Virus record (IMG/VR): IMGVR_UViG_2917413769_000002
Span: 1-41,543 of that record
From: a virus
Taxonomy: Duplodnaviria; Heunggongvirae; Uroviricota; Caudoviricetes
Strand: one strand, 5' to 3'
Length of the DNA: 41,543 nt
The stretch's first letter is position 1. Every line of letters begins with the position of its first letter. The notes under the pieces were generated by a model. That model saw only the letters and a list, made by a program, of their open reading frames with translations. It was not told the origin of the DNA and ran no database searches. Shown here in pieces: positions 6,755 through 37,090 of this stretch. The translations under genes were made by a program, and so were the position numbers.

Positions 6755-7341
6755 TAACCCAGCCCCAGTAATGACACACCTCTTTGCAGCAAGGAGCTGT
6801 TAGGTGGCTTCGTCGTTTTAGTGCCGGTGTTCAGTACCGCAGAGGTACTTACACCATCTTTCATGTCTGTTTTATCCGCCACGCTGATTTGTTGCGTTTG
6901 GGATATAAGGACTTCGCGCAGGGTGAGAACGGCGGACAGGACATTTTCGGTCGTCTTATCCGTCGTCACCTCCAGCGCGCGGATCAGCATGTTGCTGTAT
7001 AGTCGCTTACCAGTCACCACATCGAAGGGGATTCTGCTATTCTGCAGCTCCAGTAACTTCTGATACGTCTCCTGCGGGCTAAGGCCAAGACTCAGCCCGA
7101 TTTTTGATGTGTCGGCAAAATCCAACAGCGAGCCACCACCAGCAAAACCGACCTCCATCGTCACTTCAGACGGTTTTTTATAGGCGTGGTCAGCAACTGC
7201 GGCCCCGACTTCAACGGGGTGCTCTGTGATTTCCAGTGTGTCGCTGTGCTTCTCAGAAATAACGACACTTGGAATTATCAAATCGTAACTTGGACCGAAT
7301 CGCCTAGATTGCTGATGAAACAGCGTAGAGAGAATGTCCAT
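6754..7341 (-). CDS. phage tail protein (hypothetical)
   Basis: 195-aa ORF directly downstream of the tape measure gene with coupled stop/start. Confidence 0.4.
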   Translation of the reverse strand: MDILSTLFHQQSRRFGPSYDLIIPSVVISEKHSDTLEITEHPVEVGAAVADHAYKKPSEVTMEVGFAGGGSLLDFADTSKIGLSLGLSPQETYQKLLELQNSRIPFDVVTGKRLYSNMLIRALEVTTDKTTENVLSAVLTLREVLISQTQQISVADKTDMKDGVSTSAVLNTGTKTTKPPNSSLLQRGVSLLGLG

Positions 7342-9362
7342 TATCCCACCTTCGTCTGGTTGCCGCGCATCACCTGGGCGTTTGATGACTGCTGCCGACG
7401 TTCGACTTCATTACCGACCGCCCGGGCGTCACCACCACCGTAGATGTGATACGTGTTCTGCTGGTTCACCTCTGGCGCTCTGCCATACCCCGGCATGTTG
7501 CTCATCACTTTAGGGATGTAGTTGCGGGTTTCCTGAGGCATGAGGGCCATCCCGTGCTTTTGCACATTCCCTATTCCCCAGTTGTAAGACGCTAACGCCT
7601 TACTCAGGTCGCCGCCGTTCGCCTGAAGTAACTGAGCCAGATATTTCGCAGCAGCCTGCGCTGACTTCTCTGGGTCGAAAACATCGTTCCCGCGTAAGCC
7701 CATGTCGCGCGCGGTGCCATCCATAAACTGAAATAGCCCCTTTGCACCAGCGCCAGATGTTGCGAACTGATTACCGCCAGATTCCGTAATGGCAACGCTT
7801 TTCAGCAGCCCGGCGGGAAGTTGATAAACTGCCTCCAGTCTGTTGAGCATAGGTCCCATCCAGTCAAGGAGAACTTTACCCTGAGCGGTCGCGCGCGGAC
7901 GTTTCACTGACTGTGCGTGCTGTTCCGGTTCGTCGTCTGAAGGCCCTGATTCCCCGCGTAAACGTCTGCCCACACTGCGGGGATCCCACCCCGTTTTATC
8001 TTTAATCCAGTCAGCAACGCTATTAGCGCTATCCTCCACCATCGGAGTGGCGCTCGGCTGTCCGCTGCCTTGGTTAAGTAGCTGCTTGCCAATGCTGGCG
8101 GCCTGCGCCCAGTTCCCGTCTTTAATGGCATTCAGCAGGTCGGCAATCATGTTCAGCATCTTGCCGAACTCGCCCATTTGCGAAATAAAGTTATCGAAAT
8201 CCCATTTCAGGGACCACGATTTCGGGTCTATGCCGAGCAGCTTCGCCAGCGCTTGTGTCAGATCTTTGACGGTCTTTTGCAGGTCGCCAATCATCTTGAC
8301 GGCCTGGTCAACCTCTGGCTTCCACTTCTGCCAGTCAATCAGGCTCTGACCACCTTCCTTCCACGTTTTGTAATCTTCCCACAGCAGCGCTATCCCGGCG
8401 GCCAGCGCCGTAATTAAGCCAATCGGGGACATCCAGAAGGTGCTGTTCAGAATGCGCAGCGCGATGGTCAGCGCGCCGAATAAGGCGATCATCTCACGCG
8501 TCTGTTTATCGAGCGACTTCCACCAGGTAAGAAGATCAGACGTCCCCTCAATCAACCGGAAGAACAGACGACCAATAATATCCCCGAGCGCCAGAATACC
8601 CTTGATGGCTTTCGTCAGGGTCTGCTCGATGCGCGGGAAGTTATCCAGAATGTGGCGGCGCAGCGTGTCCAGCGAACCCGCCAGACCACCAGCAAGATTA
8701 GAGCCGATTTTGTCACGGGCCATGCCTGCCATCGCGCCGAACTCGCGCAGGGAGGTCATGAATTTGTTGGAGCTTCTGGCCGCTTCGTCAGCATTAAAGC
8801 CGATAGCTTTCGCCATTGCGCTGTACTGCCCGGTGAAACCGCCCACACCCCGGCGCATCGCCATGAGGGTATTTTCGTCAATACCCAGCATCTGCGCATA
8901 CTGGTTAGCCCTGTAATACGGCATGCTGCTGAGCTTCTGGCCGACGCCCGTAAAAATAGCGGCCATGTCACGCATGTTACCGCTGGCGTCACGGGTCTGT
9001 ACGCCCAGACGGTTCAGGAAACCTTCCGCTCCGGGGTTATGCCGCATAAACCGGGCGAGGCTTTCCAGAGAGGAACGCGCCGCGTCGACGCTGCCGCCCA
9101 CCTGCGAAACCGCATAGCCAATAGACTGAATCCCCTGAACCGTCGCGCCGGTGCGCTGTGACGCCCAGTAGAGATTATCCAGACCGGAGGCGATCTTAGC
9201 CGTGAAGGCCACCACGGCAAGCGCGGCACCTTCGACAGCCAGCCCCATTTTGATGGCGTTTGCGGTCGTACCGGCGAGAACAGAGTCGAACTTTGACGCG
9301 CCCGCTTCGTCGATATCGAAACCGAGCGAAACAAGGAAATCTTTAATAGTCTCAGCGTTCAT
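7341..9362 (-). CDS. tail tape measure protein with C-terminal lytic transglycosylase (SLT) domain
   Basis: 673-aa ORF rich in Ala/Gly/Met repeats; C-terminal segment ...ESGGNQ...GAKGLFQF...YNWG... carries the catalytic-Glu and AxGLMQ-like motifs of soluble lytic transglycosylases; follows the chaperone gene. Confidence 0.8.
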   Translation of the reverse strand: MNAETIKDFLVSLGFDIDEAGASKFDSVLAGTTANAIKMGLAVEGAALAVVAFTAKIASGLDNLYWASQRTGATVQGIQSIGYAVSQVGGSVDAARSSLESLARFMRHNPGAEGFLNRLGVQTRDASGNMRDMAAIFTGVGQKLSSMPYYRANQYAQMLGIDENTLMAMRRGVGGFTGQYSAMAKAIGFNADEAARSSNKFMTSLREFGAMAGMARDKIGSNLAGGLAGSLDTLRRHILDNFPRIEQTLTKAIKGILALGDIIGRLFFRLIEGTSDLLTWWKSLDKQTREMIALFGALTIALRILNSTFWMSPIGLITALAAGIALLWEDYKTWKEGGQSLIDWQKWKPEVDQAVKMIGDLQKTVKDLTQALAKLLGIDPKSWSLKWDFDNFISQMGEFGKMLNMIADLLNAIKDGNWAQAASIGKQLLNQGSGQPSATPMVEDSANSVADWIKDKTGWDPRSVGRRLRGESGPSDDEPEQHAQSVKRPRATAQGKVLLDWMGPMLNRLEAVYQLPAGLLKSVAITESGGNQFATSGAGAKGLFQFMDGTARDMGLRGNDVFDPEKSAQAAAKYLAQLLQANGGDLSKALASYNWGIGNVQKHGMALMPQETRNYIPKVMSNMPGYGRAPEVNQQNTYHIYGGGDARAVGNEVERRQQSSNAQVMRGNQTKVG

Positions 9363-9539
9363 TATCCTCTCTCCATTTCTCTATACGGCGCTGGTTGTCT
9401 GCCTTAACGGCCAGGTGGTCATTCATCAGCGCGATATCGCACAGATCGACTGATCCATCCTTCAGCGCGTAATAAGGGATTAACCCGGCGTCAACCGGGT
9501 CAAGAAGATAAGACAGCCCGTCAGGCAGGCTGTTGAGGG

Positions 9540-9992
9540 TTAACCCTGAGGCTGGCCCGGCGTCGCGCTGGTAGGGCTCACGGGCAAAAAATTTCCCAGT
9601 GAATCGGCGACCACCCGCGCCACCAGCTGCAGCATGGTCAGCAGGTCGATATCATCGAACATCAGCTGACCGCTGTTGAATACCGGCGTCCATCCGTCCA
9701 TGTGCTTGCGTGATACCACGGCCAGGCACGGATGAATAATCGCGTTGGTGTCTTCTTCGGTCAGGGAAGACAGCTCCTCAGCGATACGCGGGAGCAGGGT
9801 TTCAAACACCGGTTTCAGCTGATCGAATTTCACAGTGTCGATTTTGCCATCAGCAGGCAGAAGGGAGCGAATGCTCCCAAATTCTGACATCATTCCCGCC
9901 AGCACCGGCAGCAGTTTGCGGGTCACTTTCAGCTGGTCAAAAACGCTGAGTTTCGCCACGCGGTAATCGTGGCCTTTGATTGAGCATTCCAT
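9540..9992 (-). CDS. tail assembly chaperone (lambda G-like), with a -1 frameshift extension to 9352
   Basis: 150-aa ORF between tube and tape measure genes; slippery heptamer near its 3' end opens a 77-codon -1 frame ending at the tape measure start. Confidence 0.6.
   Translation of the reverse strand: MECSIKGHDYRVAKLSVFDQLKVTRKLLPVLAGMMSEFGSIRSLLPADGKIDTVKFDQLKPVFETLLPRIAEELSSLTEEDTNAIIHPCLAVVSRKHMDGWTPVFNSGQLMFDDIDLLTMLQLVARVVADSLGNFLPVSPTSATPGQPQG
9585..9591 (-). other. candidate programmed -1 ribosomal frameshift slippery site (T_TTT_TTG)
   Basis: minus-strand GGA AAT TTT TTG CCC; heptamer T TTT TTG in zero frame; -1 frame is open for 77 codons with no stop until TGA at 9352-9354. Confidence 0.6.
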
Positions 9993-9995
9993 CTG

Positions 9996-10436
9996 TTAAA
10001 ACTCTCCGAGAACCTGGTCGATTTTGCCGCAGTCAAACACCCAGGGCATCGTATTACCGGCCTTAGCGTTGGCGTTATCCGGCTGTTTCTGGAACGCCAC
10101 GCTGCGCGCCGTGATGATGTCTCCGCTCACCTTGTTTCGGATCACAATGACGTTGTTTCCCCAGGTGCCTGAGGACTGACTCTGCGCGTTGTACGCCAGC
10201 GACAGCTTTTTGTTTGTCGGCGAGGTCTTCAGCAGGTTGACGGTTACCGTGCCGCTTTTATCTGCGTGCAGGCTGTGCATCACTTCGCCATCAGCACCAA
10301 TTGTCATGGTGTTTTTAGGACCGCCCATTGCAACGGTGATCCCCTCCTCTGAACTGGCGGAACCGTAGCCCAGATCAATCTCGCCGGTCGGGCCGGAGAG
10401 GGACGCCGTGACGTCCATAAAAGAATAAGTAGCCAT
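9996..10436 (-). CDS. tail tube protein
   Basis: 146-aa ORF immediately downstream of the sheath gene; size and synteny. Confidence 0.65.
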   Translation of the reverse strand: MATYSFMDVTASLSGPTGEIDLGYGSASSEEGITVAMGGPKNTMTIGADGEVMHSLHADKSGTVTVNLLKTSPTNKKLSLAYNAQSQSSGTWGNNVIVIRNKVSGDIITARSVAFQKQPDNANAKAGNTMPWVFDCGKIDQVLGEF

Positions 10437-10447
10437 TCATGTTCTCC

Positions 10448-11593
10448 TTAGCGAACGACGTTGATCTGCACATCAGCGAAATGAACCGCACCCGCCAGCT
10501 TACAGGCCACCTGAATAACCGGTGCCTTACGGGCTTCGCGGTCTGCCTGCGCCTGCTCGGAAATCGGCTGCGCGTAGACGTAATAGCCTTTTGTCAGCGT
10601 ATCGCCGGAATCCAGCTGCCCGATCGGGCCGCCATTCCATACACCGGCAGCCACCAGCCCGTTTGTGACAGACTGATCCATCGACTGTTCGACATTGGAA
10701 AGGAGGCGCGTAACGCCAGCATCGGTCTGTGGGACTTTGGTTGTGCTGGTGTAGAGCAGGTTATACAGGTTGGTCTGAACGTAGTTCTGCAGCCAGTCGA
10801 GCCCGTGGCGCTCATCGAAGAAATCGCCGCTGGACATGACGCCCTGCTGCAGGATTGCCGTATCGTTTTCGTAATACACGTAGACGTTACAGTTTTTGTT
10901 ATCCAGCGCCTTAGCCTGGCTGAGGTCCAGTGTCTCGTAGGTGATACCCGGCTCCTGCTTGAATTTCAGGGTAATGGTGGTGTTGCTGCCGTTGAAATTC
11001 ACCGTGAACGCGCGACCAAATGCAGACAGCGCGGCGTACTTGCTGCTGGTGGAATACTGCACAAACGTGCGACCGTATTTTGCCGCCTTCAGCTTATAGG
11101 CGAGATCGGTTGTGGATGTCGTGTTAATCGCTTCCGAGTCTTGAGTGGTAATTGCCAGAATACGACTGAGGCTGGAAGCTTCGATCGCGGCGGCCACGCT
11201 CAGCCAGTCGGCATCATCGATCTCTTCATCATCGGCTACGCCCAAACCGTACCAACTCGTGTAATTCAGTACAGCGTTCACGGCCTGCTGCAGCGTTTCC
11301 GTAGAACCGTCTTCAGCCGATACCAGCGTTTTAGCCCAGCGACCAACATACACCTGCTGAGGTTTCGGTGATTGCGAGAAATACACCGTAGCGGCTTCAT
11401 ATTCCGGGCTATCCACACCGAAATCTGTGCCTATATCTTCGGGGGATGAGTAAAGGCGAATACGCTCAGTAACCGGGATAACCGTTGAGCTCCCGAGAAT
11501 GAGCAGCGAACCAAAGTTTCGACCAGTAGCCGCACGCGGCCCAATGATCACGTCGACATTGACGACGTTTGATACAGGTAATCCCTGCGGCAT
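10448..11593 (-). CDS. tail sheath protein
   Basis: 381-aa ORF upstream of the tube gene; size, composition and synteny typical of contractile-tail sheath proteins. Confidence 0.75.
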
Positions 11594-35484: not shown

Positions 35485-35667
35485 ATGAGTACAGACTTCA
35501 TGACAGAACAAGAGGTTTCTGAGTTGCTTCAGAAAAAAAGAACAGCTTTATATAACCTCAGAAAAAAACATGGTTTCCCTGAGCCAGTCCTCACCCACCC
35601 AGCGAGATATAGCCGCAAAGCCGTGGAAAACTGGATCAGTGCAGGCGGAGTTAACCGAGCTGTTTAA
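35485..35667 (+). CDS. AlpA / excisionase-family HTH protein
   Basis: 60-aa ORF; position next to and convergent with the integrase. Confidence 0.6.
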   Translation: MSTDFMTEQEVSELLQKKRTALYNLRKKHGFPEPVLTHPARYSRKAVENWISAGGVNRAV

Positions 35668-36820
35668 CGTGCCAGAGGATTTTATCAGCATACAGCTCGT
35701 AAGCTGCTTTCTGCTCAGGTAACCAGTCGTGTTTATTATACACGGCCATCACCCCGCCAAGCTCGTGCCCCAGCATCTTTTCGGTGACATGGGGCATCAC
35801 CCCTTCTGCAGATAAATTCGTTACCAACGAACGGCGGAAATCATGCGTTCGCCACTCCGGGATATCGATTTTACCTCTCAATTTTTTCATATAGAGATTT
35901 GACGACGAACGGTCTATAGCGCGGTCAAGCGTCTGTCCGGGAAACAGCACAGAGTTCCCACTATTCAGCAGCCGCTCAACATAGGGTTTAACCTGGTCAA
36001 AGATAGGCCGTCGGATGACATTTCCCATCTTGGAATGCTCAGATGGAGTCGTCCAGATCAGATCATCCATATTGAACTCATCCGGCGTTGAAAGCCGCAG
36101 CTCAGATAAGCGTGGTCCCCAGAGCAATAGCAGCTGGTGCAGCACTTTATTGGAGGAGACGATCTTGTTATTTTCCAGTGCCAGCCAAACCTTCGCCAGT
36201 TCGGTGTATGTTAACACCCGCTCACCGACGTCAGGCTTCTTGCCTATGGTTTTCACACTTAACTTCATCAGCTCGCATGACGGAACCAACTGCCGGCTGA
36301 TGCACCAGTTAATTACCGAGCGTAGCTGTAACAGCAGAACGCGCGCTTTCTTTTTGTTCAGGCTTTCCTGTTTATCGAAAAAACGCACCCATGCAGAAAC
36401 CGGTACATTCGCCACTGGCGCATCTTCAAATTGTGTGTACATCGTGTTGTACACGACCGATTTATAAAGCGTCTGGGTGTTGGGCTTCAGACCGGATGCA
36501 TACTTATCCCACCACTGATCAAGGCATTCTTTGAGTGTCAGCTCGCCATCTTCACGGGCAAAATAATTTTTGGGGTTCACACCCTTCGTGTACAATGCGC
36601 GCATCTCACCGACGATAACCCTAGCGTCCTTGAGGGATGTCGAAGGATAGCGGCCAACCGTCAGGCGCACTGGTTTACCGTTCCATCGATAACGATACTG
36701 AAAAGTGATTGTGCCAGTTGGCGTGATCCGGGCACTGAGACCATCACCATCGGTGATTTCTGGTGCCGCAGAATACGGTTTACCGTTGATGCTCCGTAGT
36801 TTAGTGTCGCTGAGTGCCAA
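35651..36820 (-). CDS. int: P4-type tyrosine integrase
   Basis: C-terminal catalytic region ...WRTHDFRRS...GHELGGVMAVYNKH...; N-terminal ALSDTKLRSI...KPY... block typical of P4-family integrases; likely TTG start at 36820 (ORF track extends to 36931). Confidence 0.8.
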   Translation of the reverse strand: MALSDTKLRSINGKPYSAAPEITDGDGLSARITPTGTITFQYRYRWNGKPVRLTVGRYPSTSLKDARVIVGEMRALYTKGVNPKNYFAREDGELTLKECLDQWWDKYASGLKPNTQTLYKSVVYNTMYTQFEDAPVANVPVSAWVRFFDKQESLNKKKARVLLLQLRSVINWCISRQLVPSCELMKLSVKTIGKKPDVGERVLTYTELAKVWLALENNKIVSSNKVLHQLLLLWGPRLSELRLSTPDEFNMDDLIWTTPSEHSKMGNVIRRPIFDQVKPYVERLLNSGNSVLFPGQTLDRAIDRSSSNLYMKKLRGKIDIPEWRTHDFRRSLVTNLSAEGVMPHVTEKMLGHELGGVMAVYNKHDWLPEQKAAYELYADKILWHVKQLG

Positions 36821-37015
36821 TGCGCTATATCCTGTACACAAGGGTTTCAGGCATTCTGTACTCAATCTGTACTCAATGGCAAGTGAACGAACGCAAATAT
36901 CAGCATAAACAAGCTGGTAAATGATGAACAAAGACGCACTTACATCTTGATGTCAAAGCAGTAAAGGCGGTAGAATCAGCATCACGGTGAACAACCAAAA
37001 ACATCGCCGATCAAT

Positions 37016-37090
37016 GTCCCCTTAGTTAAATGGATATAACGAGCCCCTCCTAAGGGCTAATTGCAGGTTCGATTCCTGCAGGGGACACCA
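37016..37090 (+). tRNA. argW: tRNA-Arg (anticodon CCU), argW-like
   Basis: 75 nt: 7-bp acceptor stem GTCCCCT/AGGGGAC, T-arm GCAGG-TTCGATT-CCTGC, anticodon loop CTCCTAA, 3' CCA encoded. Confidence 0.9.

What the first reader, a model, noticed from the sequence alone, without database searches (positions are those of the whole stretch)
9352..9992. Textbook -1 programmed frameshift in the tail assembly chaperone (G/GT-like)
Near the 3' end of the chaperone gene the mRNA reads GGA AAU UUU UUG CCC, with slippery heptamer U_UUU_UUG at 9585-9591. The -1 frame from this point is open for 77 codons and ends at a TGA overlapping the tape measure ATG (9352-9354). This is the conserved architecture of the two-product chaperone upstream of tape measure genes. 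I verified the open frame codon by codon.
Basis: seen in the sequence. Interest (0 to 1): 0.45.

Follow-up and report, generated by a model that had tools for sequence, protein, structure and literature searches.

The report
Tail chaperone -1 ribosomal frameshift site
A prophage tail-assembly chaperone gene almost certainly makes a second, longer protein when a few ribosomes slip back one base on a run of six U's; this is a well-known phage trick, though public annotation of this phage family mostly misses it.

Summary
On the minus strand the chaperone gene (9992-9540) reads CUG GGA AAU UUU UUG CCC. The -1 frame is open from there to the TGA at 9354-9352. That TGA lies 5 nt past the tape-measure ATG (9362-9360) and does not overlap it.

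The -1 extension encodes a conserved domain (Pfam DUF6889, E 4e-22). It has no start codon of its own.

Across about 190 related loci (66-67 after removing near-duplicates), the in-phase U_UUU_UUN run is always present. -1 stop codons are common upstream of it, sometimes directly abutting it, and essentially absent downstream. The -1 peptide is conserved from the U-run onward.

No conserved stimulatory RNA structure was found downstream. The same is reported for phage P2 E/E+E', which uses the same TTTTTTG heptamer.

One refinement: in this enterobacterial clade the overlapping heptamer A_AAU_UUU is also preserved at synonymous sites. In E. coli reporters it shifts better than U_UUU_UUG when stimulated, so the exact slip register is unresolved.

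Verdict: a real G/GT-type -1 programmed frameshift and a new member of a known kind. One relative (Klebsiella phage Mulock) is already annotated this way. RefSeq instead calls a separate CTG-start "DUF6889 family protein". Interest is low to moderate.

The parts
9540..9992 (-). Tail assembly chaperone gene, frame 0, 150 aa (the G-like product)
9585..9591 (-). Core slippery heptamer U_UUU_UUG, with UUU in the P site and UUG in the A site
   Evidence: Sequence. The in-phase T_TTT_TTN is present in all 75 distinct close relatives, in the genome loci at 47-99% chaperone identity and in 41 of 41 distant viral loci. The codon before the run ends in T in 66 of 66 representatives. Five representatives have a -1 stop directly abutting it.
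9585..9597 (-). Extended slippery tract G_GGA_AAU_UUU_UUG, three overlapping in-phase heptamers: G_GGA_AAU, A_AAU_UUU and U_UUU_UUG
   Evidence: The tract is unique in the window, with 0 expected. It is invariant in 74 of 75 distinct close relatives. In the clade where the seventh base is G, GGA and AAT are kept in 24 of 26 representatives although neighbouring synonymous sites vary freely. G_GGA_AAU is lost in several lineages.
9540..9591 (-). Overlap zone where frame 0 (chaperone tail) and frame -1 (linker of the fusion) are both open
   Evidence: The -1 peptide FF-x-R-x-P is more conserved (R 83%, P 83%) than the frame-0 peptide (50% or less) across 66 representatives.
9352..9584 (-). -1 frame extension: 77 codons plus the TGA stop. 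This is the T-like part of the predicted 213-aa fusion protein
   Evidence: Open frame shown. Variable sites by -1 codon position downstream of the frame-0 stop are 19/9/46. There is no ATG, GTG or TTG before the conserved core. A natural T7 variant, L092/P0040, encodes the same 213-aa fusion in one frame.
9361..9477 (-). DUF6889 domain, a small helical domain encoded only in the -1 frame
   Evidence: Pfam PF21829 at E 3.9e-22, residues 41-79 of the translation of 9597-9355. PHROG 4364 at E 2e-24. The AlphaFold model has helices at 27-36, 43-46 and 52-79, with 10-residue block-mean pLDDT of 83-91 over residues 31-80, preceded by a disordered linker.
7341..9362 (-). Tape measure protein gene, 673 aa, with a C-terminal lytic transglycosylase domain. 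Its start overlaps the end of the -1 ORF by 11 nt, and its GGAGAGAGG ribosome-binding site (9374-9366) lies inside the DUF6889 coding sequence
   Evidence: SLT E 8e-24; PhageMin_Tail; PHROG 2276, tail length tape measure protein, E 1.6e-251.
9996..10436 (-). Tail tube gene directly upstream of the chaperone
   Evidence: Pfam KPP10_Orf10 (listed as Phage_Tube_PhiTE in another release) at E 1.4e-60.
10448..11593 (-). Tail sheath gene
   Evidence: Pfam DUF3383 at E 1e-105. PHROG 205 'tail sheath' at E 3e-135.

Best explanation
This is a G/GT-type programmed -1 ribosomal frameshift in the tail assembly chaperone gene of a SEN34-like temperate contractile-tail prophage.

Most ribosomes translate frame 0 and terminate at UAA 9542-9540. 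That gives the 150-aa chaperone.

A minority slip back one nucleotide on the A3U6 tract at 9594-9585, whose core is U_UUU_UUG at 9591-9585. They then read 77 further codons in the -1 frame and stop at UGA 9354-9352, just inside the tape-measure gene. The product is a fusion protein of about 213 aa: the chaperone domain (about 1-135), a disordered linker of about 25 residues, and a helical DUF6889 domain of about 55 residues.

Shown here:
- the sequence architecture;
- that the -1 frame is protein-coding;
- that it has no start codon of its own;
- that the in-phase U-run is the invariant boundary between a -1 frame full of stops and a -1 frame free of them.

Inferred by analogy with lambda gpG/gpGT and P2 E/E+E':
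- that slippage is ribosomal and of low frequency;
- that the shared N-terminal part coats the tape measure protein while the DUF6889 part recruits the tube protein;
- that the two products are needed in a fixed ratio;
- that neither product ends up in the virion.

The slip probably needs no dedicated downstream RNA structure. The exact register is unresolved. With A-site UUU (heptamer A_AAU_UUU) the junction would read ...GNFFAR. With A-site UUG (heptamer U_UUU_UUG) it would read ...GNFLAR.
For: Gene order and family hits.

Open -1 frame without a start codon. No canonical start between the heptamer and the conserved core in 113 of 161 distinct relatives.

DUF6889 hit at E 3.9e-22 in the -1 frame. 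Wobble-type variation in the -1 frame, 19/9/46.

In-phase T_TTT_TTN in every relative examined: 75 distinct close sequences, 57 genome loci down to 47% chaperone identity and 41 of 41 distant viral loci.

-1 stops number 416 in 8,296 codons upstream of the heptamer. In the 76 codons after it, about 0-1 are premature where 255 would be expected, while the +1 frame has 270. Five representatives have a -1 stop directly abutting the U-run.

The -1 peptide FFxRxP is conserved from the U-run on, more than the frame-0 peptide.

The wobble base before the run is T in 66 of 66 representatives, whereas a nearby Asn codon is AAC in 23 and AAT in 11.

The slip site sits right after the last helix of the folded chaperone domain.

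A homologous locus in Klebsiella phage Mulock is annotated in GenBank as a joined 'tape measure chaperone frameshift product'.

Phage P2 uses the same TTTTTTG heptamer for E/E+E' without a hairpin (PMC3091744). The lambda G/GT mechanism and domain roles are reviewed in PMC5009743.
Against: There is no direct evidence of the fusion protein or of the slip frequency.

In E. coli reporters U_UUU_UUG is a weak motif: 0.12% unstimulated and 0.77% with a strong pseudoknot (PMC4066793, Table S3).

No conserved stimulator was found.

PGAP and several phage records annotate the DUF6889 part as a separate gene.

In the distant relatives a Met codon often lies about 8 residues before the conserved core. 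Some internal initiation there cannot be excluded.
Confidence: 0.88

Rival explanations
1. DUF6889 is a separate small gene translated from its own, possibly non-canonical, start codon. This is how RefSeq/PGAP and several phage records annotate it. No frameshift would be involved.
For: PGAP calls a 54-aa 'DUF6889 family protein' in hundreds of E. coli genomes. Stand-alone CDSs are annotated in Klebsiella and Hafnia phages. PHROG 4364 is a 54-position profile of such ORFs. In the distant relatives an ATG often precedes the core by about 8 codons.
Against: The PGAP start is a CTG.

Database entries use at least six different starts, which map to the window's CTG, CTT, TTA, ACC and TTT codons.

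The window has no ATG, GTG or TTG in the -1 frame until a codon inside the domain. In 113 of 161 distinct relatives there is none between the heptamer and the core.

Independent initiation would not explain three things: why the -1 frame is stop-free and its peptide conserved from the U-run onward, why the U-run and its phase are invariant, or why the preceding wobble base is always T.
Confidence: 0.04
2. The frame change is made at the RNA level. RNA polymerase stutters on the T6 run and inserts one extra U in a fraction of transcripts, which are then translated normally into the fusion.
For: A homopolymer run sits at the junction. One public assembly (L092) has T7 at this position and encodes the fusion in a single frame, which shows that a +1 U gives the same product. 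This mechanism cannot be excluded from sequence alone.
Against: By established knowledge (reviewed in PMC5009743), efficient transcriptional slippage in bacteria uses runs of about 8-9 or more A or T. Here the run is held at 6, or 7 when the next base is T, across all lineages rather than lengthened.

The tract has the exact X_XXY_YYZ phase in every relative.

In the enterobacterial clade the adjacent AAA, which extends a ribosomal heptamer but not the homopolymer, is preserved at synonymous sites.

P2 uses the same TTTTTTG in what is described as a translational frameshift (PMC3091744).
Confidence: 0.04
3. It is a ribosomal -1 frameshift, but the productive slip is mainly on A_AAU_UUU (9594-9588), with Phe-tRNA in the A site, and not on the reader's U_UUU_UUG. 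This is a variant of the best explanation that differs only in register and in the junction residue: NFFA instead of NFLA.
For: In E. coli reporters A_AAU_UUU reaches 11.4% with a strong stimulator, against 0.77% for U_UUU_UUG and 1.05% for G_GGA_AAU. The rule found there is that UUY is a better A-site shifter than UUG (PMC4066793).

In relatives whose seventh base is G, GGA AAT is kept in 24 of 26 representatives although flanking synonymous sites vary. Where the seventh base is T or C, the AAAT context is present in only 9 of 40.
Against: A_AAU_UUU is absent in lineages that keep only U_UUU_UUG (L133, L141, L143, L145). In L145 a -1 stop directly precedes the U-run.

Without a stimulator A_AAU_UUU is no better (0.070% against 0.118%), and no stimulator was found.

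P2 functions with TTTTTTG (PMC3091744).

The association is confounded by shared ancestry.
Confidence: 0.35
4. The open -1 frame and the heptamer are a chance coincidence, and the 177-nt stretch between the chaperone and the tape measure is non-coding.
For: The heptamer TTTTTTG is no rarer than chance in the window: 12 found against 10.9 expected.
Against: Pfam and PHROG hits in the -1 frame. Codon-position pattern. Conservation over more than 150 loci. Stop-codon statistics.
Confidence: 0.01

Closest known systems
Bacteriophage P2 E / E+E' tail chaperone frameshift (Christie et al. 2002; Xu, Hendrix & Duda 2004, as cited in PMC3091744)
   Same: Both are contractile-tail temperate phages of enterobacteria. 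Both have two products from one start, encoded between the tube gene and the tape measure gene. [quoted passage not shown]
   Different: There is no detectable sequence relationship. The window protein hits only Phage_TAC_15 and DUF6889, not a P2 GpE family. The sizes differ: 150 and about 213 aa here, against 91 and 142 aa in P2. The flanking tail genes belong to the DUF3383-sheath / KPP10-tube lineage, not the P2 FI/FII lineage. This tract also carries two additional in-phase heptamers.
Bacteriophage lambda gpG / gpGT (Levin et al. 1993; Xu et al. 2004, 2013, 2014; reviewed in PMC5009743)
   Same: Same position in the tail operon and same logic: an abundant chaperone plus a rare -1 fusion whose extra domain is thought to recruit the tail tube subunit. 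The slip is near the end of the chaperone ORF. The -1 ORF has no start and ends at the tape measure gene.
Klebsiella phage Mulock CPT_Mulock_014/015 (GenBank MN098327)
   Same: It is a true homologue, with chaperone identity of about 59%. It has the same GGGAAATTTTTTG tract and the same DUF6889-type -1 ORF. It is already annotated as 'tape measure chaperone frameshift product' with a joined CDS.
   Different: That is an annotation only. The genome announcement does not discuss it, and no experiment is on record.
dnaX and IS911/IS3-type stimulated -1 frameshifts in E. coli (PMC4066793)
   Same: Both use tandem slippage on an X_XXY_YYZ heptamer by the E. coli-type translation apparatus.
   Different: Those sites depend on an upstream Shine-Dalgarno-like element and/or a downstream hairpin or pseudoknot. 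Here no conserved structure was detected, and no good SD-like element was seen by eye 6-17 nt upstream.

Membership tests
G/GT-type tail assembly chaperone -1 programmed frameshift (Xu, Hendrix & Duda 2004) | Two overlapping ORFs lie between the major tail (tube) gene and the tape measure gene | tested here: met
   The order is sheath 11593-10448, tube 10436-9996, chaperone 9992-9540, -1 ORF to 9352, tape measure 9362-7341.
G/GT-type tail assembly chaperone -1 programmed frameshift (Xu, Hendrix & Duda 2004) | The upstream ORF is a tail assembly chaperone | tested here: met
G/GT-type tail assembly chaperone -1 programmed frameshift (Xu, Hendrix & Duda 2004) | The downstream ORF is in the -1 frame, overlaps the 3' end of the chaperone ORF and lacks its own initiation signal | tested here: met
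   The -1 frame is open 9651-9355 with no ATG, GTG or TTG before the conserved core. 113 of 161 distinct relatives have none between the heptamer and the core. Annotated starts in databases are inconsistent and non-canonical.
G/GT-type tail assembly chaperone -1 programmed frameshift (Xu, Hendrix & Duda 2004) | A slippery X_XXY_YYZ heptamer lies in zero-frame phase within the overlap | tested here: met
   U_UUU_UUG is at 9591-9585. A_AAU_UUU and G_GGA_AAU lie just upstream.
G/GT-type tail assembly chaperone -1 programmed frameshift (Xu, Hendrix & Duda 2004) | The slip site and the -1 coding frame are conserved in relatives despite sequence divergence | tested here: met
G/GT-type tail assembly chaperone -1 programmed frameshift (Xu, Hendrix & Duda 2004) | Two proteins with a common N-terminus are made at a fixed low ratio, both are required for tail assembly, and neither is in the virion | not testable with these tools
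   This needs protein expression, genetics or proteomics.
G/GT-type tail assembly chaperone -1 programmed frameshift (Xu, Hendrix & Duda 2004) | The extension (T) domain binds the tail tube subunit, and the shared domain binds the tape measure | not testable with these tools
   Inferred from lambda only (PMC5009743). The DUF6889 model has no solved structural relative.
P2 GpE / E+E' protein family | Sequence homology to P2 gpE | tested here: not met
   The Pfam scan of the chaperone and of the extension returned only Phage_TAC_15 and DUF6889 at E up to 0.01.
P2 GpE / E+E' protein family | The -1 slip occurs at TTTTTTG without a downstream hairpin | tested here: met
   Identical heptamer. No conserved structure. 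The P2 facts come from PMC3091744.
Stimulated bacterial -1 frameshift sites (dnaX, IS3/IS911 type) | A conserved downstream hairpin or pseudoknot lies about 5-9 nt from the heptamer | tested here: not met
   RNAalifold consensus energy is -0.26 kcal/mol with no covarying pairs over 47 diverse sequences. The 55-nt downstream windows have mean z +0.18 and fold less stably than control windows. The window's own 65 nt give z +0.75. The only nearby stem starts at the last base of the heptamer, which is too close.
Transcriptional (RNA polymerase) slippage sites | A homopolymeric A or T run of about 8-9 or more | tested here: not met
   The run is T6 here. In the 66 non-redundant representatives it is T6-T7, with one T8 (L165). 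The length threshold is from established knowledge (review PMC5009743).

The most novel reading that the evidence does not exclude
The 13-nt tract G_GGA_AAU_UUU_UUG may be a composite, multi-register slip site.

The wider chaperone family uses the efficient U_UUU_UUY. The enterobacterial clade changed the A-site codon to the poorly shifting UUG. It may compensate by holding a second overlapping heptamer, A_AAU_UUU, at synonymous sites. The fusion protein would then be made from two registers as two isoforms (junction NFFA and NFLA), without any RNA structure.

A by-product of this reading is that Pfam DUF6889, often mislabelled 'NTP pyrophosphohydrolase', is the T-domain of Phage_TAC_15 chaperones and is never made as a free protein.
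Probability: 0.35. Interest if true: 0.35.

Novelty: new member of a known kind. Interest (0 to 1): 0.22.

Why it matters
The biology is expected. Nearly all long-tailed phages make a chaperone and a frameshifted chaperone fusion between the tube and tape measure genes.

The practical value lies in annotation:
- This prophage type matched 332 of 5,426 complete E. coli genomes. In all 15 E. coli matches listed, RefSeq annotates the -1 part as a free-standing 'DUF6889 family protein', and in the one inspected the start is a CTG codon. Other database entries carry the spurious name 'NTP pyrophosphohydrolase'. SEN34 and several other phage records leave the stretch unannotated.
- The data here link Pfam DUF6889 and PHROG 4364 to Phage_TAC_15 and PHROG 1688 as two halves of one recoded gene, across a family with more than 1,400 clusters at 50% identity.

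The conserved contrast between U_UUU_UUY (distant relatives) and A_AAU_UUU_UUG (enterobacterial clade) is a small natural data set on how slip-site strength is tuned without RNA structures.

Tried and rejected
1. Downstream stimulator. I folded 131 nt and 65 nt of the window, ran RNAalifold on 47 diverse homologues and computed per-sequence MFE z-scores against control windows. There is no conserved or unusually stable structure at a useful distance. The z of -2.5 for the 131-nt fold comes from hairpins 58 nt or more downstream. By eye, the one at +58 to +78 is absent from divergent relatives.

2. Rfam scan of the whole window. It found only a tRNA and no recoding element.

3. Independent start for the -1 ORF. 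Rejected.

4. G_GGA_AAU (lambda-like) as the functional heptamer. Rejected as the essential site, because the leading G or the whole GGGAAA is lost in several lineages that keep the -1 ORF.

5. Solved-structure relatives by sequence for both domains. None found. The fold search of the DUF6889 model against the PDB gave nothing meaningful.

6. T7 in-frame fusion variants as a natural polymorphism. Only one Logan contig has it (L092). The 23 IMG/VR matches to GGGAAATTTTTTTGCC are unrelated loci.

7. A joint alignment of the fusion with fragment homologues (A4) was misaligned and was not used.

8. Papers on SEN34 and Mulock do not mention the frameshift. Christie et al. 2002 is not held in the library.

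9. Two apparent exceptions are decayed prophages, not counter-examples. L138 has a truncated DUF6889 and has lost the tape-measure start. L140 has a -1 stop in the linker and comes from an Arsenophonus metagenome-assembled genome.
Full report
**What is in the sequence.** All relevant genes are on the minus strand.
- The chaperone ORF runs from ATG 9992-9990 to TAA 9542-9540, 150 aa.
- Its frame-0 codons at 9599-9582 read CUG GGA AAU UUU UUG CCC.
- The -1 frame is open from 9651 to the TGA at 9354-9352.
- The tape measure ATG is at 9362-9360. The -1 stop therefore lies 5 nt past the ATG and does not overlap it, and the two ORFs share 11 nt (ATGAACGCTGA). The TGA that does overlap the ATG (9361-9359) is in the +1 frame. 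This is the only inaccuracy in the observation.
- The heptamer by itself means nothing: TTTTTTG occurs 12 times in the window against 10.9 expected. The 13-mer GGGAAATTTTTTG is unique.

**What the genes are.**
- The neighbourhood is a contractile-tail module. It contains sheath (DUF3383, PHROG 205), tube (KPP10_Orf10), chaperone (Pfam Phage_TAC_15 E 5.5e-32; PHROG 1688 E 4e-64) and tape measure with a C-terminal lytic transglycosylase (PHROG 2276). Dit-like, plug, hub and Baseplate_J proteins follow.
- The window as a whole is a SEN34-like (Brunovirus) temperate prophage. It has portal, capsid and integrase genes beside a tRNA-Arg(CCT) gene.
- The translation of the -1 frame from 9597 to 9355 hits Pfam DUF6889 at E 3.9e-22 and PHROG 4364 at E 2e-24.
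- The -1 product models as a disordered linker of about 20-25 residues followed by a small helical domain with high pLDDT (10-residue block means 83-91 over residues 31-80). That domain has no solved relative.

**Comparative evidence.** I collected four sets of relatives:
- 80 close viral contigs;
- annotated phages and E. coli prophages;
- 58 genome loci at 47-99% chaperone identity;
- 41 distant viral contigs whose chaperones are only about 30-45% identical to each other and to the query set.

The results:
- Every one of the 75 distinct close sequences keeps the in-phase T6 run, and 74 of them the full GGGAAATTTTTTG. All keep a -1 ORF extending 188-194 nt past the frame-0 stop.
- In the genome set, G_GGA_AAU and A_AAU_UUU are lost in several lineages. 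L133, L141, L143 and L145 keep only U_UUU_UUG. L120 and L137 have U_UUU_UUU. The in-phase U_UUU_UUN is always there.
- In all 41 distant loci the site is T_TTT_TTY. It is followed by a -1 ORF encoding a recognisably homologous peptide...EDWLMRPV..G.C.YESL.DG.LDL.DIA.MN.ALDV..EN.... The search pattern for these loci required Phe-Phe at the protein level. It did not require TTT codons or the preceding wobble T.
- After reduction to 66-67 representatives (<85% nt identity), the codon before the run ends in T in 66 of 66 (AAT, AGT, ACT, GGT, GAT). An Asn codon three positions upstream is AAC in 23 and AAT in 11.
- -1-frame stops occur at 5.0% per codon upstream of the run (416 in 8,296). In the 76 codons from the run onward, 255 would be expected and 12 are seen. 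Six of those are in the T7 variant L092, where the frames are renumbered. One is in a decayed Arsenophonus prophage. Five are the natural ORF ends. The +1 frame has 270 stops in the same stretch.
- In five representatives the last upstream -1 stop directly abuts the U-run, and in seven more it is three codons away. That places the frame change on the run itself.
- Immediately after the run the -1 peptide (F-F-x-R-x-P; R and P each 83%) is better conserved than the frame-0 peptide (no column above 50%).
- Downstream of the frame-0 stop, variable sites among close relatives fall 19/9/46 on -1 codon positions 1/2/3. This matches the 51/23/82 pattern of the chaperone proper.

**No independent start.** The window has no ATG, GTG or TTG in the -1 frame before a Met codon that lies inside the conserved domain. 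Of 161 distinct relatives, 113 have no canonical start between the run and the conserved core. Database entries for stand-alone DUF6889 proteins are 46-95 aa long. They begin at at least six different positions, which correspond in the window to CTG, CTT, TTA, ACC and TTT codons. The common RefSeq protein WP_023229521.1 starts at a CTG. Many of these entries carry the name 'NTP pyrophosphohydrolase', for which I found no support. The distant relatives often have a Met about 8 residues before the core. Internal initiation there cannot be ruled out, but it would not explain the constraints listed above.

**Stimulatory elements.**
- The 65 nt after the heptamer fold no better than shuffles, z +0.75.
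- RNAalifold on 47 diverse homologues gives -0.26 kcal/mol and no covariation.
- The 55-nt windows starting 4 nt after the heptamer average z +0.18. They are less stable than control windows in the same genes, -11.6 against -13.7 kcal/mol.
- The one local stem (GCCCG...CGGGC) begins at the last base of the heptamer, which is too close to act as a conventional stimulator.
- Rfam finds nothing.

This matches what is reported for phage P2, whose E/E+E' frameshift uses the same TTTTTTG and has no hairpin (PMC3091744). The P2 efficiency is reported as 2-3 times that of lambda G/GT (PMC5009743).

**Which register?** E. coli reporter data (PMC4066793, Table S3, read) give the following -1 frameshift frequencies:

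| Heptamer | No stimulator | IS911 stimulators | IS3 pseudoknot |
|---|---|---|---|
| U_UUU_UUG | 0.118% | 0.247% | 0.765% |
| A_AAU_UUU | 0.070% | 0.355% | 11.4% |
| G_GGA_AAU | 0.069% | 0.112% | 1.05% |
| U_UUU_UUU | 0.33% | 0.45% | 10.2% |
| U_UUU_UUC | 0.12% | 0.89% | 7.6% |

- The rule stated there is that UUY is a better A-site shifter than UUG.
- The wider family uses the efficient U_UUU_UUY.
- The enterobacterial clade has UUG. In that clade GGA AAT is retained in 24 of 26 representatives although Asp, Ser, Leu and Val codons next to it vary synonymously. Where the seventh base is T or C, the AAAU context is present in only 9 of 40.
- I read this as a hint that A_AAU_UUU contributes in this clade. 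The association is confounded by shared ancestry, and some lineages manage with U_UUU_UUG alone.
- The registers predict different junctions: NFFA, NFLA or KFFA.

**Rivals.**
- Transcriptional slippage cannot be excluded from sequence. It is unlikely for a run held at 6-7 U across all lineages, in strict heptamer phase, with an adjacent non-homopolymeric AAA under selection.
- The single T7 assembly (L092, protein P0040, 213 aa) shows what the fusion looks like. It is a one-off.
- Chance and non-coding explanations are refuted by the family hits and the statistics.

**Comparison with the known, and verdict.**
- Functionally this is the lambda G/GT and P2 E/E+E' arrangement. It meets every sequence-level criterion of that class. 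The protein-level criteria (two products, ratio, binding partners) could not be tested.
- It is not a sequence homologue of P2 gpE or lambda gpG.
- A true homologue, Klebsiella phage Mulock, is already annotated with a joined 'tape measure chaperone frameshift product'. No paper I could find discusses it.
- The finding is therefore correct and ordinary in kind: a new, well-supported member of a known class.
- Its main value is in correcting annotation of a widespread prophage family and in assigning DUF6889 a role as the T-domain of Phage_TAC_15 chaperones.

Noticed in passing
window 9352-9516 (-); L001 2035-2199: RefSeq/PGAP annotates the -1 ORF as a separate 54-aa 'DUF6889 family protein' (WP_023229521.1) that starts at a CTG codon. 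Older entries call the same ORF 'NTP pyrophosphohydrolase', with at least six different start positions. This looks like a systematic mis-annotation of a frameshift product. The prophage type matched 332 of 5,426 complete E. coli genomes, and all 15 E. coli matches listed in the search output carry this separate-gene annotation.
   Followed up: yes
L092 1896-1911 (Logan SRR23924998 contig): One public assembly has T7 in place of T6 at the slip site, so chaperone and DUF6889 are fused in a single 213-aa ORF (P0040). It could be a homopolymer sequencing error or a rare mutant. No such variant was found among chaperone homologues in IMG/VR.
   Followed up: partly
window 37016-37090 (+) and 35651-36931 (-): A tRNA-Arg(CCT) gene lies directly next to a tyrosine integrase gene (Arm-DNA-bind_3 plus Phage_integrase). 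The window therefore appears to hold a whole SEN34-like prophage integrated at a tRNA-Arg gene. I did not look for attachment-site repeats.
   Followed up: partly
window 7341-9362 (-): The tape measure protein carries a C-terminal SLT lytic transglycosylase domain at residues about 509-606, so it is a tape measure with a built-in cell-wall hydrolase.
   Followed up: no
window 9470-9545 (-): Two fairly stable hairpins lie 58-120 nt downstream of the slip site: ACAGCCUG/CGGGCUGU, and a stem of about 10 bp over the codons for LDPVDAGL. They account for the z of -2.5 in the 131-nt fold. By eye, the first is absent from divergent relatives. They seem too far away to act as conventional stimulators. 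Conservation of the second was not formally tested.
   Followed up: partly
L138 and L140 (Izhakiella australiensis; Arsenophonus metagenome-assembled genome): Two relatives break the pattern. L138 has a truncated DUF6889 and has lost the tape-measure start. L140 has a -1 stop in the linker. Both look like decaying prophages in insect-associated bacteria.
   Followed up: partly
window 9366-9374 (-): The tape measure ribosome-binding site GGAGAGAGG is embedded in the conserved K-W-R-E codons at the C-terminus of DUF6889. Those codons therefore serve two purposes.
   Followed up: no
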